Assembly: GCA_964291235.2 (NCBI GenBank)
Contig: OZ219815.1
Location: 896,001-960,000 of the forward strand
DNA from: Vicinamibacteria bacterium
GTDB taxonomy: Bacteria; Acidobacteriota; Vicinamibacteria; Marinacidobacterales; Marinacidobacteraceae
Reading direction: 5' to 3'
DNA: 64,000 nucleotides
Shown: positions 1-2,731 of the stretch, piece after piece
Position numbering within the stretch: the stretch's first letter is position 1
Layout: the number at the start of each line of letters is the position of its first letter
The notes under the pieces: generated by a model
The model's input: the letters and a program-made list of their open reading frames with translations, nothing else
Told to the model about the DNA's origin: nothing
Databases searched by the model: none
Translations under genes and position numbers: made by a program

Positions 1-418
1 GTCCGCCGTAGCGCAGGTAGATCTGCTCGTCCGGACTGACGATGAAGAAGTAGATGGAGTGATGCCAATCGAAGTCGTAGAGGCCGACGTCGATGGGACG
101 CATGTTCGTGATGCGGGCGCGGACGAAGCGTTCGAGCAGACGTCCCCTCTCGGAATCTCGCGGCGACAGCACAACCTGTGCGTCGAATCGTCGGCCGGTG
201 ATTCAGGGCGAGCAGCGGAATTCGACCAGTAACGGCCGTCCCGTCTCTTTCGCCAGCGCCAGCGCCTGCTCGTAGTTGCTCAGCCATTCGAGAGTGTCGT
301 CCTCGAGCGGCTGTCCCCCGGCCGCCGCCGAGTGTCCCGGACCGCTCAGCCCGACGAACAGGCCGGCAGCAGCGAGGAGCAGGGCGCCGGGGCCTCTGAC
401 CGATGTGTGTTGTTGCAT
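1..418 (-). CDS. Exported thioredoxin-fold selenoprotein (CxxU), resembling the Trx7/PDZ (seleno)protein family; runs off the window start
   Basis: GGAAGGA RBS precedes ATG 418, then a signal peptide and WLSNYEQALALAKETGRPLLVEFRC-S-P-TGA(205-203). The frame stays open after the TGA to base 1: ITGRRFDAQVVLSPRDSERGRLLERFVRARITNMRPIDVGLYDFDWHHSIYFFIVSPDEQIYLRYGG. Confidence 0.85.
164..185 (-). promoter_or_regulatory. Putative bacterial SECIS hairpin
   Basis: Minus strand reads CGAC-GCACA-GGT-TGTGC-T-GTCG: a stem with one bulged U and a GGU apical loop starting about 26 nt after the UGA, similar to the E. coli fdhF SECIS (GCAGGUCUGC). Confidence 0.75.
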
Positions 419-575
419 GGCAGTCCTTCCAGGTGCGGCACCCATCCCTGGCGGCGCGCCACCGGAGGCACCCCGATCAGCAGAAACGGAAAGCAGTTTC
501 TCGGTGCGGCGCCAGATTAGAGAGCGGGCGGTGCAGATGCAACCCGCGCTCGCGGCTGCCGTCCAGCTCCGCCGA

Positions 576-1136
576 CTAGTCCTCCGAACTCCCTACCACC
601 GCAAGGGACCCGGGATCGACGGATGGTCCGTCGCCGCGCGTCACCGGGACGCGGAGGGCGTCCACCATCGCGCACAACCGGTCGGTACAGGCCTGCGCAT
701 CCACCTGGACCCAGCTCCCGGGATCCGCGCGCACGACGCGGGCCGCGAAGAACGAACGGTCTTCGAAGCCCCAGGTGTACCAGCGGAGGTCGGGCTGAGA
801 GAGTTCGGTCGGGCTCGTCTGGCGCCAGGGCTTCGCCAATTCGATCCCGGGTGAAGGGGTGATGCGCGTCGGCAACTCGGTGTCGGGGGTGGCCTTCCCG
901 GTCACCTCTCTCGCGCGTTCCACATTGTCCATCGCGTAGGTGTGCCAGCCGGGCTCGTGCCAGACATCGACAATGAGCCAGTCGCCCTCGATCCGCGCCG
1001 CGTAGCTCGCCGCGAAGGTGTCGCCCAGCCAGACCTCCTGGCGTGCCGGTTCTCCGGTTTCCTGAGCGGCGGCGGTTGCTGCGATGCCGGCGAGCATCAG
1101 CACCGCCAACGCGTTTGCGGGGATCAGGTCTCTCAT
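576..1136 (-). CDS. Secreted DsbD N-terminal (alpha) domain-like protein
   Basis: Signal peptide ending AAAQ, PGWHTY motif, C-terminal Cys pair QACTDRLC. Confidence 0.65.
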   Translation of the reverse strand: MRDLIPANALAVLMLAGIAATAAAQETGEPARQEVWLGDTFAASYAARIEGDWLIVDVWHEPGWHTYAMDNVERAREVTGKATPDTELPTRITPSPGIELAKPWRQTSPTELSQPDLRWYTWGFEDRSFFAARVVRADPGSWVQVDAQACTDRLCAMVDALRVPVTRGDGPSVDPGSLAVVGSSED

Positions 1137-1331: not shown

Positions 1332-1934
1332 ATGCTCGACATCGCCGTCATCGAGGAACCGGTCGCCGCCGCGCTGACGCTGGACCCGAAGCGGGCCCGG
1401 CTGCTCGCGGAAATGGCGGAACCGGTGTCGGCCGCGACCCTGGCGGCCCGGGTCGGCCTCCCCCGCCAGAAGGTCAACTACCACGTGCGCACCCTCGAGA
1501 AACACGGGCTCGCGCGGGTCGTGGAAGAACGCCGTTGGGGCGGGCTGACCGAACGGCGGCTGGTGGCGACCGCCCGCTCCTACGTGGTGAGTCCGGCGGC
1601 CCTCGGCCCGCTGGCCAGCGACCCCGGACGGACGCGGGACCGGCTGTCCGCCGGCTACCTGATCGCCCTCGCCGCCCGCGTCGTGCGTGAGCTCAGTCAA
1701 TTCCTGCGGCGCGCCACCGAGACCGGCAAGCGGCTCGCCACCCTCTCGATCGATACCGAGGTCCGGTTCTCCTCCCCGGAGGCCCGGGCCCGGTTCAGCA
1801 GCGAACTCGTCGGCGCGATCACGGAACTCGTCCGGCGCTACCACGACGAATCCGTTCCCGGGGGGCGCAGCCACCGACTGGTGGTCGTCGCCTATCCGGC
1901 TCCGGCGGGCACTTCCGCCAAGGAAACATCATGA
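1332..1934 (+). CDS. ArsR-like winged helix-turn-helix transcriptional regulator
   Basis: SAATLAARVGLPRQKVNYHVRTLEKHGL HTH; ATGA overlap with the next gene. Confidence 0.85.
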   Translation: MLDIAVIEEPVAAALTLDPKRARLLAEMAEPVSAATLAARVGLPRQKVNYHVRTLEKHGLARVVEERRWGGLTERRLVATARSYVVSPAALGPLASDPGRTRDRLSAGYLIALAARVVRELSQFLRRATETGKRLATLSIDTEVRFSSPEARARFSSELVGAITELVRRYHDESVPGGRSHRLVVVAYPAPAGTSAKETS

Positions 1935-2731
1935 GCATCAAGCACGATCCATCCGGCCGCCGCTCGATCCAGGTCGAAGCCGAGGTCCCCGGCACGCCCG
2001 AGGAGGTGTGGGAGGCCATCGCCACCGGCCCCGGCATCGGTTCCTGGTTCTACCCGACCGACGTCGAGGAACGCGTCGGCGGCAGCCTCGCCTACCACAC
2101 CGGTTCCGAAATGGACCACATTCCGGCGAAGGTGACCGCCTGGGATCCGCCCCGGCGTTTCCGCCACGAGGGGAAGGACTGCGGAGCGGAGGGGCCGCCG
2201 ACCGCCACCGAGTGGACCATCGAGCCGCGCGCCGGGGGCCGCTGCCTCGTCCGCGTGGTGCACAGCCTGTTCGCGAGCACGGACGACTGGGACGACCAGC
2301 TCGAGAACTTCGAGAACGGATGGCCCCAGGCGCTCGCCATTCTGCGGCTCTACCTCACCCACTTCCGCGGTCAGCGCGCCACCATCGTCCGGGCCTACGG
2401 CGCCTTCGACGGTTCGGTGGAGGACTCCTGGAATGCCCTCCTCGCCACGCTCGATACCGGCGGGCTCGCACCTGGCGACCCCTGGGCGCTCCCCGATTCC
2501 GACGCCGGCAGCCTCGCGGGGGTTCTCGATGAACTCCGGCCCGAGGGCCTCCAGCCCTGCGTGCTGGTCCGCCTCGACCGGCCGGCGCCGGGCATCGCGG
2601 CGGCGTGCGCCTACAAGATCGCGGAGCGGGCGACCGTGGTCCTCAGCGTCTACTACTACGGCGACGAGGGGCCGGCGGCGGCCGGCGACGCCGCCGGATG
2701 GCAGGCCTGGATCGCGGCGCGCTTTCCGTAG
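1931..2731 (+). CDS. SRPBCC / AHSA1-like domain protein
   Basis: EVPGTPEEVWEAIATGPGIGSWF, VTAWDPPRRF and GWPQALAILRLYL motifs; commonly paired with ArsR regulators. Confidence 0.8.
   Translation: MSIKHDPSGRRSIQVEAEVPGTPEEVWEAIATGPGIGSWFYPTDVEERVGGSLAYHTGSEMDHIPAKVTAWDPPRRFRHEGKDCGAEGPPTATEWTIEPRAGGRCLVRVVHSLFASTDDWDDQLENFENGWPQALAILRLYLTHFRGQRATIVRAYGAFDGSVEDSWNALLATLDTGGLAPGDPWALPDSDAGSLAGVLDELRPEGLQPCVLVRLDRPAPGIAAACAYKIAERATVVLSVYYYGDEGPAAAGDAAGWQAWIAARFP

What the first reader, a model, noticed from the sequence alone, without database searches (positions are those of the whole stretch)
1..418. Hidden selenoprotein: the UGA in a CxxU thioredoxin active site has a SECIS hairpin after it
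Seen: the ORF track ends this gene at 80 aa, but the stop is TGA at exactly the second-cysteine position of a thioredoxin CxxC motif (FRC-S-P-U). The frame then continues for more than 65 protein-like codons to the window edge. A bulged stem-loop with a GGU apical loop (CGAC-GCACA-GGT-TGTGC-T-GTCG) lies about 26 nt downstream. Established: bacterial Sec insertion needs a SECIS just 3' of the UGA, bound by SelB. Inference: this is an exported (signal peptide) Sec-containing oxidoreductase resembling the Trx7/PDZ (seleno)protein family, and standard gene callers would split or truncate it.
Basis: partly seen in the sequence, partly recalled or inferred. Interest (0 to 1): 0.85.

Follow-up and report, generated by a model that had tools for sequence, protein, structure and literature searches.

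The report
Known Trx7/PDZ selenoprotein gene, confirmed

Summary
Confirmed. A minus-strand gene starts at window 418 (ATG) and runs off the window. In the genome it is 444 aa (435 from the likelier start), with a single in-frame TGA at window 203-205, in the motif FRC-S-P-U.

- **Family:** the read-through protein scores 377 bits against NCBIfam NF041199, "Trx7/PDZ domain-containing (seleno)protein" (cut-off 300).
- **Homologues:** in 80 related loci the aligned codon is TGA in 78 and Cys (TGC/TGT) in 2.
- **SECIS:** the hairpin at window 164-185 (GGU loop, 26 nt after the UGA) meets the four published bSECIS constraints. It is paired in 95% of cells across 76 distinct sequences, has one covarying pair, and sits in a block of frozen synonymous sites.
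- **Sec machinery:** the genome has tRNA-Sec, selA, selB and selD.
- **Sequencing error:** contigs of two other runs (from two studies) also read TGA.

The family has been in print since 2008, so this is a new member of a known kind.

I found three points in no searched paper:
- an invariant CxxCH motif (80 of 80 loci);
- a conserved adjacent nDsbD-like gene (77 of 80 loci, fused in one Cys-form homologue);
- a Trx domain whose predicted fold is closest to DsbD-type C-terminal domains.

Together they suggest a periplasmic DsbD-like redox relay, possibly with haem.

The parts
1..418 (-). 5' part of the Trx7/PDZ selenoprotein gene. It starts at ATG 418-416 and continues beyond window base 1 to G000:C1:895111. 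The whole gene is L001:611-1945(-) counted from the upstream ATG at window 445.
   Evidence: NF041199 scores 377.2 bits against a cut-off of 300. There is a single in-frame TGA.
424..430 (-). Shine-Dalgarno-like GGAAGGA, 5 nt before ATG 418.
   Evidence: Read. The start choice fits the 435-aa close homologues. Inference.
314..418 (-). Probable signal peptide (MQQHTSVRGPGALLLAAAGLFVGLSGPGHSAAAGG).
   Evidence: Hydrophobic core and Ala-rich end judged by eye. Cys-form homologues P0055 and P0074 have similar short hydrophobic N-termini. No predictor was run.
212..214 (-). Codon of the first active-site Cys (C of CxxU).
   Evidence: Invariant C34 in alignment A3.
203..205 (-). TGA read as selenocysteine (U81 from ATG 445; U72 from ATG 418).
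   Evidence: The aligned codon is TGA in 78 of 80 related loci and Cys in 2. Unchanged in contigs of runs X1, X4 and X5.
164..185 (-). bSECIS hairpin: lower stem CGAC/GUCG, bulged U, upper stem GCACA/UGUGC.
   Evidence: 95.0% of 684 cells paired, against at most 54.7% for slid partners. Pair 36-57 reads UA 37 / CG 25 / UG 5 / unpaired 9. Synonymous sites are frozen. -10 kcal/mol.
174..176 (-). Apical loop GGU (or the 5-nt loop A-GGU-U, as RNAalifold draws it).
   Evidence: Columns 45-47 are invariant in 79 of 79 sequences. RNAalifold keeps 4 bp with loop AGGUU.
576..1136 (-). Conserved partner gene: an exported nDsbD-like protein of 186 aa. The invariant Cys pair C150/C155 (QxCx4C) is at window 687-689 and 672-674.
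   Evidence: A homologue lies adjacent on the same strand in 77 of 80 loci. Invariant Q117, C119, C124 in A4. The Pfam DsbD_N match is weak (E 0.0011, 19.4 bits, cut-off 25). It is fused to the C-terminus of Cys-form P0074.

Best explanation
The gene encodes an exported selenoprotein of the known Trx7/PDZ family.

During translation, the UGA at window 205-203 is decoded as selenocysteine. The hairpin at 185-164, with its GGU apical loop 26 nt after the UGA, acts as the bacterial SECIS that recruits SelB-GTP-Sec-tRNASec. The tRNA is made by the genome's own selC, selA and selD. This step is inferred from strong comparative evidence and has not been shown biochemically.

The product has a signal peptide, then a thioredoxin-fold domain with a C-S-P-U redox centre, then a linker carrying an invariant C-V-E-C-H motif, then two PDZ domains. 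There is no protease domain.

Proposed function (inference): a periplasmic selenol/thiol-disulfide oxidoreductase.
- Its Trx domain, which in the predicted model is closest to DsbD-type C-terminal domains, exchanges electrons with the adjacent nDsbD-like protein through that protein's invariant Cys pair.
- The PDZ tandem holds the client protein or peptide.
- The CxxCH may carry a covalently bound haem.
For: **Sec codon**
- There is one in-frame TGA, and the frame is open on both sides of it.
- NF041199 matches residues 53-432 to profile positions 2-389 of 390, across the TGA, at 377.2 bits (cut-off 300).
- The aligned codon is TGA in 78 of 80 loci and TGC/TGT in 2. Cys forms P0055 and P0074 read RCAPC.
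- The only other genome over the cut-off among 301 of the phylum (G110) also has 1 TGA.

**SECIS**
- The structure counts are given under parts.
- Codons +7 to +12 (GAC GCA CAG GTT GVG CTG, where V is mostly T) have synonymous entropy of 0-0.64 bit, against 1.0-1.7 bit at invariant residues elsewhere. They use codons that are rare elsewhere in this stretch: GCA in 76 of 77 Ala, GTT in 69 of 79 Val.
- Mutual information between the two paired third positions is 0.541 bit. The next best of the other 84 third positions gives 0.247. The pairing holds in both GC3 halves.
- The two Cys-form loci lack the hairpin sequence.
- All four published bSECIS constraints are met: loop 3-9 nt, upper stem at least 4 bp, G in the first two loop positions, spacing 16-37 nt, and energy at or below -7.5 kcal/mol (legend of Fig. 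2 of PMC13188914 read).

**Sec machinery**
- tRNA-Sec 69.7 bits (cut-off 47), and ARAGORN calls SeC(tca).
- selB 311.1 bits with its pieces (cut-off 242.25).
- selA 498.1 bits (cut-off 267.9).
- selD 249.5 bits (cut-off 125).

**Not a sequencing error**
- Contigs of X1, X4 and X5 cover window 1-280 with 0 differences.

**Function**
- AF2 model: pLDDT 92.3, pTM 0.89.
- The Trx domain's best match is 3f9u_B, the C-terminal domain of an exported cytochrome c biogenesis-related protein: Z 14.2, rmsd 2.4, 119 aligned. It also matches cDsbD 1vrs_D at Z 9.2.
- The partner gene is adjacent in 77 of 80 loci and has an invariant Cys pair.
- C[VI]ECH is present in 80 of 80 loci.
- selA lies directly upstream of the gene in L096.
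Against: - No protein-level evidence exists: no 75Se labelling and no mass spectrometry.
- The hairpin alone is not better than shuffled sequence, and the minimum-energy fold of the 86-nt stretch is a different structure.
- RNAalifold keeps only the 4-bp upper stem.
- 7 of the 9 pairs show no change on both sides, so covariation rests mainly on one pair. That pair is unpaired in 9 of 76 distinct sequences.
- No Rfam family matched.
- The sequences are related, so shuffle controls overstate the support.
- For function, the partner's DsbD_N match is below Pfam's cut-off and it has no NCBIfam name.
- No membrane DsbD/CcdA gene is at the locus; the one copy is about 750 kb away.
- No Pfam cytochrome domain is detected.
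Confidence: 0.93

Rival explanations
1. The TGA is a real stop. The locus is either two separate genes (a 71-80 aa exported peptide and a 330-360 aa PDZ protein, as gene callers annotate it) or a pseudogene.
For: Public gene calls mostly start after the TGA: 118 of 120 listed homologues cover at most 81% of the query. TGA is an ordinary stop elsewhere in this genome; for example the HTH gene at 1332-1934 ends in TGA.
Against: - The TGA sits inside a conserved active-site motif that the curated family model spans.
- It is kept in 78 of 80 loci down to about 45% protein identity and is replaced only by Cys codons.
- Both sides of the TGA are under protein-level conservation.
- A nonsense pseudogene would not keep the same TGA across orders.
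Confidence: 0.03
2. The TGA is a sequencing or assembly error for TGC/TGT, and the protein is an ordinary CxxC protein.
For: Cys forms of the family exist: L078 (TGC), L117 (TGT), P0055 and P0074.
Against: - Contigs assembled from runs X4 and X5, from two studies, read the same letters over window 1-280 with 0 differences. X1 does too, but it may be the source of this DNA.
- 78 independently assembled relatives have TGA.
- The frozen hairpin is present only in the TGA forms.
Confidence: 0.01
3. The UGA is read through, but not as Sec. It would be decoded as Cys, Trp or Gly by near-cognate or reassigned decoding, and the conserved hairpin would only stimulate read-through.
For: No protein-level data are available. 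The hairpin matched no curated RNA family.
Against: - A complete Sec machinery is present.
- Only this one TGA lies in the gene.
- The hairpin meets the bSECIS constraints, including the invariant GGU loop.
- selA is adjacent to the gene in L096.
- Other genes of the genome are open under table 11 with no stops inside.
Confidence: 0.03

Closest known systems
NCBIfam NF041199, Trx7/PDZ domain-containing (seleno)protein. It is listed as 'PDZ domain-containing protein, pfam13899, CxxU' in PMC9312934. By list order (my inference), it is also the 'Putative secreted serine protease MucD' family of Zhang & Gladyshev 2008 (PMC2398784).
   Same: Same architecture (Thioredoxin_7 plus two PDZ domains), same CxxU motif with one Sec, and a score above the equivalog cut-off.
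   Different: Nothing in the gene itself; it is a typical member. The passages I read in these papers give no function. They do not mention the CxxCH motif or the nDsbD-like neighbour.
DsbD electron relay of E. coli: the C-terminal Trx-like domain passes electrons to the N-terminal Ig-like domain (PDB 1VRS).
   Same: - The predicted Trx domain is structurally closest to DsbD-type C-terminal domains: 3f9u_B at Z 14.2, 1vrs_D at Z 9.2, 6dnu_A at Z 7.9.
- The conserved neighbour resembles nDsbD, with a weak DsbD_N hit and an invariant Cys pair.
   Different: - The two domains are separate soluble proteins, or fused without a membrane domain in P0074.
- There is no DsbD_TM gene at the locus.
- The active site is CxxU, not CxxC.
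- The partner's Cys spacing is Cx4C.
- PDZ domains and a CxxCH motif are added.
- The direction of electron flow is unknown.
MamP/MamE magnetochrome proteins (PDZ plus CXXCH haem domains; PDB 4JJ0).
   Same: Both are periplasmic proteins that combine PDZ domains with a CXXCH motif. The MamP PDZ is among the best structural matches: Z 11.2, rmsd 2.0, 84 aligned, 23% identity. The sequence hints are weak.
   Different: - Here there is a single CXXCH, placed before the PDZ domains.
- The NF040965 MamP model matches only at E 0.0034, far below its cut-off.
- There is no evidence of haem binding here.
- MamP has no Trx domain and no Sec.
E. coli fdhF-type bacterial SECIS and the bSECISearch consensus.
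   Same: Both are a hairpin in the coding sequence just after the UGA, with a small apical loop that has G in its first positions. Here the spacing is 26 nt (allowed range 16-37) and the energy is -10 kcal/mol (limit -7.5).
   Different: The sequence is unrelated to fdhF (the comparison is from recall; fdhF was not fetched). The bulged U is on the 3' side of the stem. No Rfam model covers it.

Membership tests
NF041199 Trx7/PDZ (seleno)protein | Whole-protein score at or above the curated equivalog cut-off (300 bits) | tested here: met
   377.2 bits, E 8.4e-113, residues 53-432 matched to profile positions 2-389 of 390.
NF041199 Trx7/PDZ (seleno)protein | Thioredoxin_7 domain followed by PDZ domains | tested here: met
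   PF13899 34.1 bits; PF13180 40.4 bits (2 stretches); PF17820 30.5 bits (2 stretches). The AF2 model shows a Trx fold and two PDZ folds.
NF041199 Trx7/PDZ (seleno)protein | CxxU or CxxC redox motif at the Trx active site | tested here: met
   The window reads C-S-P-U. 78 of 80 loci have CxxU and 2 have CxxC.
Bacterial selenoprotein gene | In-frame UGA aligned with Cys in homologues, with conservation on both sides | tested here: met
Bacterial selenoprotein gene | bSECIS hairpin meeting the consensus constraints (loop 3-9 nt, upper stem at least 4 bp, G in the first two loop positions, 16-37 nt from the UGA, energy at or below -7.5 kcal/mol) | tested here: met
   Loop GGU or AGGUU, upper stem 4-5 bp, 26 nt spacing, -10 kcal/mol. 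Constraints read in PMC13188914. Conserved and partly covarying. bSECISearch itself was not run.
Bacterial selenoprotein gene | Genome encodes tRNA-Sec, SelA, SelB and SelD | tested here: met
   All four score above curated cut-offs.
Bacterial selenoprotein gene | Selenium shown in the protein | not testable with these tools
   Needs 75Se labelling or mass spectrometry.
DsbD-like gamma/alpha thiol-disulfide relay | Trx-like domain of the cDsbD type | tested here: met
   VIA-align: 3f9u_B Z 14.2 (rmsd 2.4, 119 aligned); 1vrs_D Z 9.2 (rmsd 2.5, 105 aligned). General thioredoxins also score Z 8-12.
DsbD-like gamma/alpha thiol-disulfide relay | nDsbD-type partner domain with a redox Cys pair | tested here: inconclusive
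   PF11412 DsbD_N E 0.0011, 19.4 bits, below the cut-off of 25. The Cys pair is invariant in 52 of 52 sequences. The partner's fold was not predicted.
DsbD-like gamma/alpha thiol-disulfide relay | Membrane electron-transfer domain (DsbD_TM) fused or adjacent | tested here: not met
   The genome has a single PF02683 match, at G000:C1:146163-146822, about 750 kb away. None was seen among the 10 flanking ORFs scanned from 5 loci.
c-type cytochrome (haem c protein) | CXXCH motif in an exported protein | tested here: met
   C[VI]ECH in 80 of 80 loci. C165, E167, C168 and H169 are invariant in A3. Export is judged by eye only.
c-type cytochrome (haem c protein) | Recognisable cytochrome c domain | tested here: not met
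   No cytochrome family among the Pfam hits at E up to 1. No cytochrome among the 50 VIA rows, though residues 148-194 were barely tested by that search.
c-type cytochrome (haem c protein) | Cytochrome c maturation genes in the genome | tested here: met
   PF01578 matches at 130.9 and 102.5 bits.
c-type cytochrome (haem c protein) | Covalently bound haem | not testable with these tools
   Needs haem staining or spectroscopy of the expressed protein.
HtrA/DegP/MucD serine protease | Trypsin-like protease domain with a catalytic triad | tested here: not met
   No trypsin or peptidase family in Pfam. TIGR02037 scores 27.1 bits against a cut-off of 416.2, covering only the PDZ part. Matches to DegP/DegQ structures cover the PDZ region, with TM 0.15-0.29.

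The most novel reading that the evidence does not exclude
The Trx7/PDZ family could be a haem-c-carrying selenoprotein. Together with its adjacent nDsbD-like partner it would form a soluble, membrane-independent DsbD-like relay. The invariant CxxCH haem would link one-electron periplasmic carriers to the Cys-Sec redox centre, and the PDZ tandem would select client proteins. That would be a cytochrome-driven (seleno)disulfide reductase of a kind not yet described.
Probability: 0.15. Interest if true: 0.7.

Novelty: new member of a known kind. Interest (0 to 1): 0.3.

Why it matters
For genome annotation it is a clean worked example. A curated family model plus Sec machinery rescues a gene that ordinary callers cut at the UGA; 118 of 120 listed database homologues are truncated.

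For biology, the family has no known function. Three observations made here turn "unknown redox protein" into a testable hypothesis:
- an invariant CxxCH motif;
- a nearly universal adjacent nDsbD-like partner, fused in one homologue;
- a DsbD-C-terminal-like Trx fold.

The hypothesis is a periplasmic DsbD-like electron relay with a selenocysteine centre and possibly a haem.

The very strongly conserved bSECIS is nearly identical from Vicinamibacteria to Bryobacterales and to MAGs labelled as other phyla. It could seed a covariance model for finding such genes.

Tried and rejected
- **Single-sequence folding** as evidence for the SECIS. It is no better than shuffles, so I relied on comparative data instead.
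- **Rfam scan** of window 1-600 at E up to 10. It gave only two chance hits with E above 8 and no SECIS family.
- **GC3 bias** as an explanation for the C-G/U-A covariation. Rejected: mutual information is 0.541 bit against at most 0.247 for any other third position, and the pairing holds in both GC3 halves.
- **Phylum scan with NF041199.** 2 of 301 genomes are over the cut-off. The count includes the unpublished genomes G024, G152 and G049, none of them over the cut-off. The other matches are PDZ domains of unrelated proteins.
- **Clustering of stop-to-stop ORFs** in the flanks of 80 loci. It was swamped by low-complexity alternative frames of high-GC DNA and gave nothing usable beyond the two genes.
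- **Pfam scan of 10 flanking ORFs** from 5 loci. No third conserved neighbour emerged (selA once; otherwise peptidases, PgpA, a PQQ dehydrogenase, a carbamoyltransferase).
- **Foldseek against PDB.** Only PDZ-tandem proteases matched, with low TM.
- **PDB sequence search.** Only weak PDZ matches, best E 0.008.
- **Complex prediction** of the Trx part with the partner. The job was not accepted, so binding is untested.
- **ESM Atlas look-up** of the CxxCH region. Not accepted.
- **Earlier scan notes.** None exist for this genome.
- **RNA run X17.** One contig of a roughly 92%-alike relative spans the TGA unchanged. It is only a hint of transcription, because DNA can be present in RNA libraries.

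Full report
**Observation.** The feature is on the minus strand.
- One search lists ORF 203..445(-), 80 aa, ending ...GRPLLVEFRCSP before a TGA at window 205-203.
- Reading TGA as U, the same frame stays open for 67 more codons to the window edge.
- The window is G000:C1:896001-960000. In the flanking DNA (L001) the frame closes after 444 codons, with that one TGA as the only irregularity.
- The likelier start is ATG 418-416. It has GGAAGGA 5 nt upstream, and the close homologues L058, L061 and L062 are 435 aa with 71 residues before the Sec. This places Sec at residue 72 of the precursor.

**What the protein is.**
- Pfam finds Thioredoxin_7 (34.1 bits) and two PDZ domains (PDZ_2 40.4 bits, PDZ_6 30.5 bits).
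- NCBIfam's equivalog model NF041199, "Trx7/PDZ domain-containing (seleno)protein", matches residues 53-432 to 2-389 of its 390 positions at 377.2 bits (cut-off 300).
[quoted passage not shown] It also appears as "PDZ domain-containing protein, pfam13899, CxxU" in PMC9312934 (passage read). Both credit Zhang & Gladyshev 2008.
- In the 2008 paper (PMC2398784, passages read), Table 4 lists a "Putative secreted serine protease MucD" family with 2 selenoproteins and 12 Cys homologues, and the Discussion notes its CxxU motif. Equating the two names rests on identical list order and is my inference.
- Supplements were closed and may hold more.

**Is the TGA a Sec codon?**
- A database search gave 285 relatives among 8000 candidates scored. 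Of the 120 listed, 118 cover at most 81% of the query and begin after the TGA, so they are truncated gene calls. P0055 and P0074 are full length and read RCAPC.
- A scan of one genome per species gave 203 confirmed relatives, of which the best 80 were kept. The codon aligned to the window's TGA is TGA in 78 of the 80 and TGC or TGT in the other two, L078 and L117.
- Among 301 genomes sampled from the phylum, only G000 and G110 pass the family cut-off, each with one TGA. The sample includes three unpublished genomes that are non-carriers.
- The genome has tRNA-Sec (69.7 bits, cut-off 47; ARAGORN calls SeC, anticodon tca), selB (311.1 bits with its pieces), selA (498.1 bits) and selD (249.5 bits).
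- Contigs of runs X4 and X5, from two studies, read the same letters over window 1-280 with no difference. X1 does too, but it may be the source of this DNA. Sequencing error is therefore excluded as far as contigs can show.

**The SECIS.**

*Single sequence.* On its own the hairpin is unremarkable (figures under observation check).

*Pairing across relatives.* I aligned 79 sequences, 76 of them distinct, from 15 nt before the TGA to 87 nt after it; the alignment has no gaps (A2).
- None of 500 shuffles reached the observed pairing or covariation score.
- Pair 36-57 reads U-A in 37, C-G in 25, U-G in 5 and unpaired in 9. Pair 41-51 has 2 double changes.
- The remaining pairs vary on one side only, never vary, or depart only by unpaired cells, so they say little.
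- RNAalifold keeps only the 4-bp upper stem with loop A-GGU-U.

*Frozen synonymous sites.* Codons +7 to +12 after the TGA are almost frozen at synonymous sites, at 0-0.64 bit. They use GCA for Ala (76 of 77) and GTT for Val (69 of 79). Invariant residues elsewhere in the stretch show 1.0-1.7 bit.

*GC3 control.* The covarying columns are both third codon positions, so I tested whether GC3 bias could explain them.
- Their mutual information is 0.541 bit, against at most 0.247 for any other third position.
- The pairing holds in both GC3 halves.

*Other checks.*
- The two Cys-form loci have different codons here and no hairpin.
- The element meets the published consensus constraints (Fig. 2 legend of PMC13188914): loop 3-9 nt, upper stem at least 4 bp, G in the first two loop positions, 16-37 nt spacing, energy at or below -7.5 kcal/mol.
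- Rfam has no matching family.

**Beyond the finding: anatomy and likely function.**

*Structure.*
- An AF2 model of the mature protein, built from a 62-sequence alignment, is confident: pLDDT 92.3, pTM 0.89.
- Foldseek sees only the PDZ tandem, matching DegQ, DegP and RseP at E about 1e-7 and TM 0.15-0.3. That explains the old "MucD" label.
- There is no protease domain.
- The search that does not lean on Foldseek places the Trx domain nearest to 3f9u_B, the C-terminal domain of an exported cytochrome c biogenesis-related (DsbD-type) protein: Z 14.2, rmsd 2.4, 119 aligned. cDsbD also matches (1vrs_D Z 9.2; 6dnu_A Z 7.9), as does DsbH.
- The best PDZ match is MamP: Z 11.2, rmsd 2.0, 84 aligned.

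*Partner gene.*
- The gene just upstream in the window (576-1136, minus strand; 186 aa; signal-peptide-like N-terminus) has a homologue on the same strand next to the Trx7/PDZ gene in 77 of 80 loci. L061, L062 and L126 gave no hit.
- It lies upstream in the closest Vicinamibacteria relatives and directly downstream in the others.
- In 5 of 6 loci mapped with a crude ORF picker, the two ORFs abut or overlap.
- In the Cys-form P0074 the homologous sequence is fused to the C-terminus.
- The partner has an invariant Q-x-C-x4-C in 52 of 52 sequences. Its DsbD_N match is weak and below cut-off, and it has no NCBIfam name.

*CxxCH motif.*
- All 80 loci carry C-[VI]-E-C-H between the Trx and PDZ parts: 74 CVECH and 6 CIECH.
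- In this genome it is at P0002 residues 209-213, outside the window at L001:1321-1307(-).
- This is the haem-c attachment motif, and the genome has cytochrome c assembly genes. However, no cytochrome domain is recognised.

*Searches for these points in print.* Searches for these features together with the family returned only the reviews, and the passages I read do not connect them.

**Mechanism proposed.**
- *Strongly supported:* SelB-dependent insertion of Sec at UGA 205-203, directed by the hairpin at 185-164.
- *Inferred:*
  - export to the periplasm;
  - a Cys-Sec redox centre on a DsbD-gamma-like Trx domain that exchanges electrons with the nDsbD-like partner;
  - PDZ domains that bind clients.
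- *Speculative:* haem on the CxxCH.
- The only DsbD_TM gene is about 750 kb away, so the electron source is open.
- Binding of the two proteins could not be tested here.

**Verdict.** Novelty is low: this is a typical member of a catalogued selenoprotein family. The partner gene, the CxxCH motif and the fold assignment are modest new leads on a family of unknown function.

Noticed in passing
L001:1307-1321(-) (G000:C1:895807-895821, outside the window): The invariant C-V-E-C-H (CxxCH) motif between the Trx and PDZ parts. It is present in 80 of 80 related loci. A possible haem-c site.
   Followed up: partly
window 576-1136 (-): An nDsbD-like exported protein with an invariant QxCx4C. It is adjacent to the selenoprotein gene in 77 of 80 loci. 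The gene order is flipped between the closest Vicinamibacteria relatives (upstream) and all others (downstream). It is fused in P0074.
   Followed up: partly
L096:1480-2856 (+): In this Bryobacterales locus, selA (PF03841, 417 bits) lies directly upstream of the Trx7/PDZ gene.
   Followed up: no
L069:4287-5600 (+): The partner ORF in this locus is 438 aa and carries EF-hand matches at residues 350-386. Database protein P0069 (774 aa) also lists EF-hand families.
   Followed up: no
L068:2860-3582 (+): This relative's reading frame stops after 240 residues even with the Sec TGA read through. It could be a second stop, a frameshift or an assembly error.
   Followed up: no
G000:C1:1307759-1308700 (+): The selD match lies in a 795-aa open frame, much longer than the 311-position model. 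It may be a fusion protein. selA is about 6 kb away.
   Followed up: no
window 1332-2731 (+): Divergent from the partner gene are an ArsR/HTH_20-type regulator (45.8 bits) and an AHSA1/SRPBCC protein (42.8 bits), with overlapping stop and start.
   Followed up: no
L082, L091, L092, L127 (labelled Acidimicrobiia); L078, L117, L126 (Nitrospirales); L098 (Planctomycetota); L093 (Hydrogenedentota); L123 (Brocadiaceae): Family members sit in MAGs labelled with phyla other than Acidobacteriota. This could reflect lateral transfer or binning errors. The nearly identical SECIS in most of the Sec forms among them is notable.
   Followed up: no
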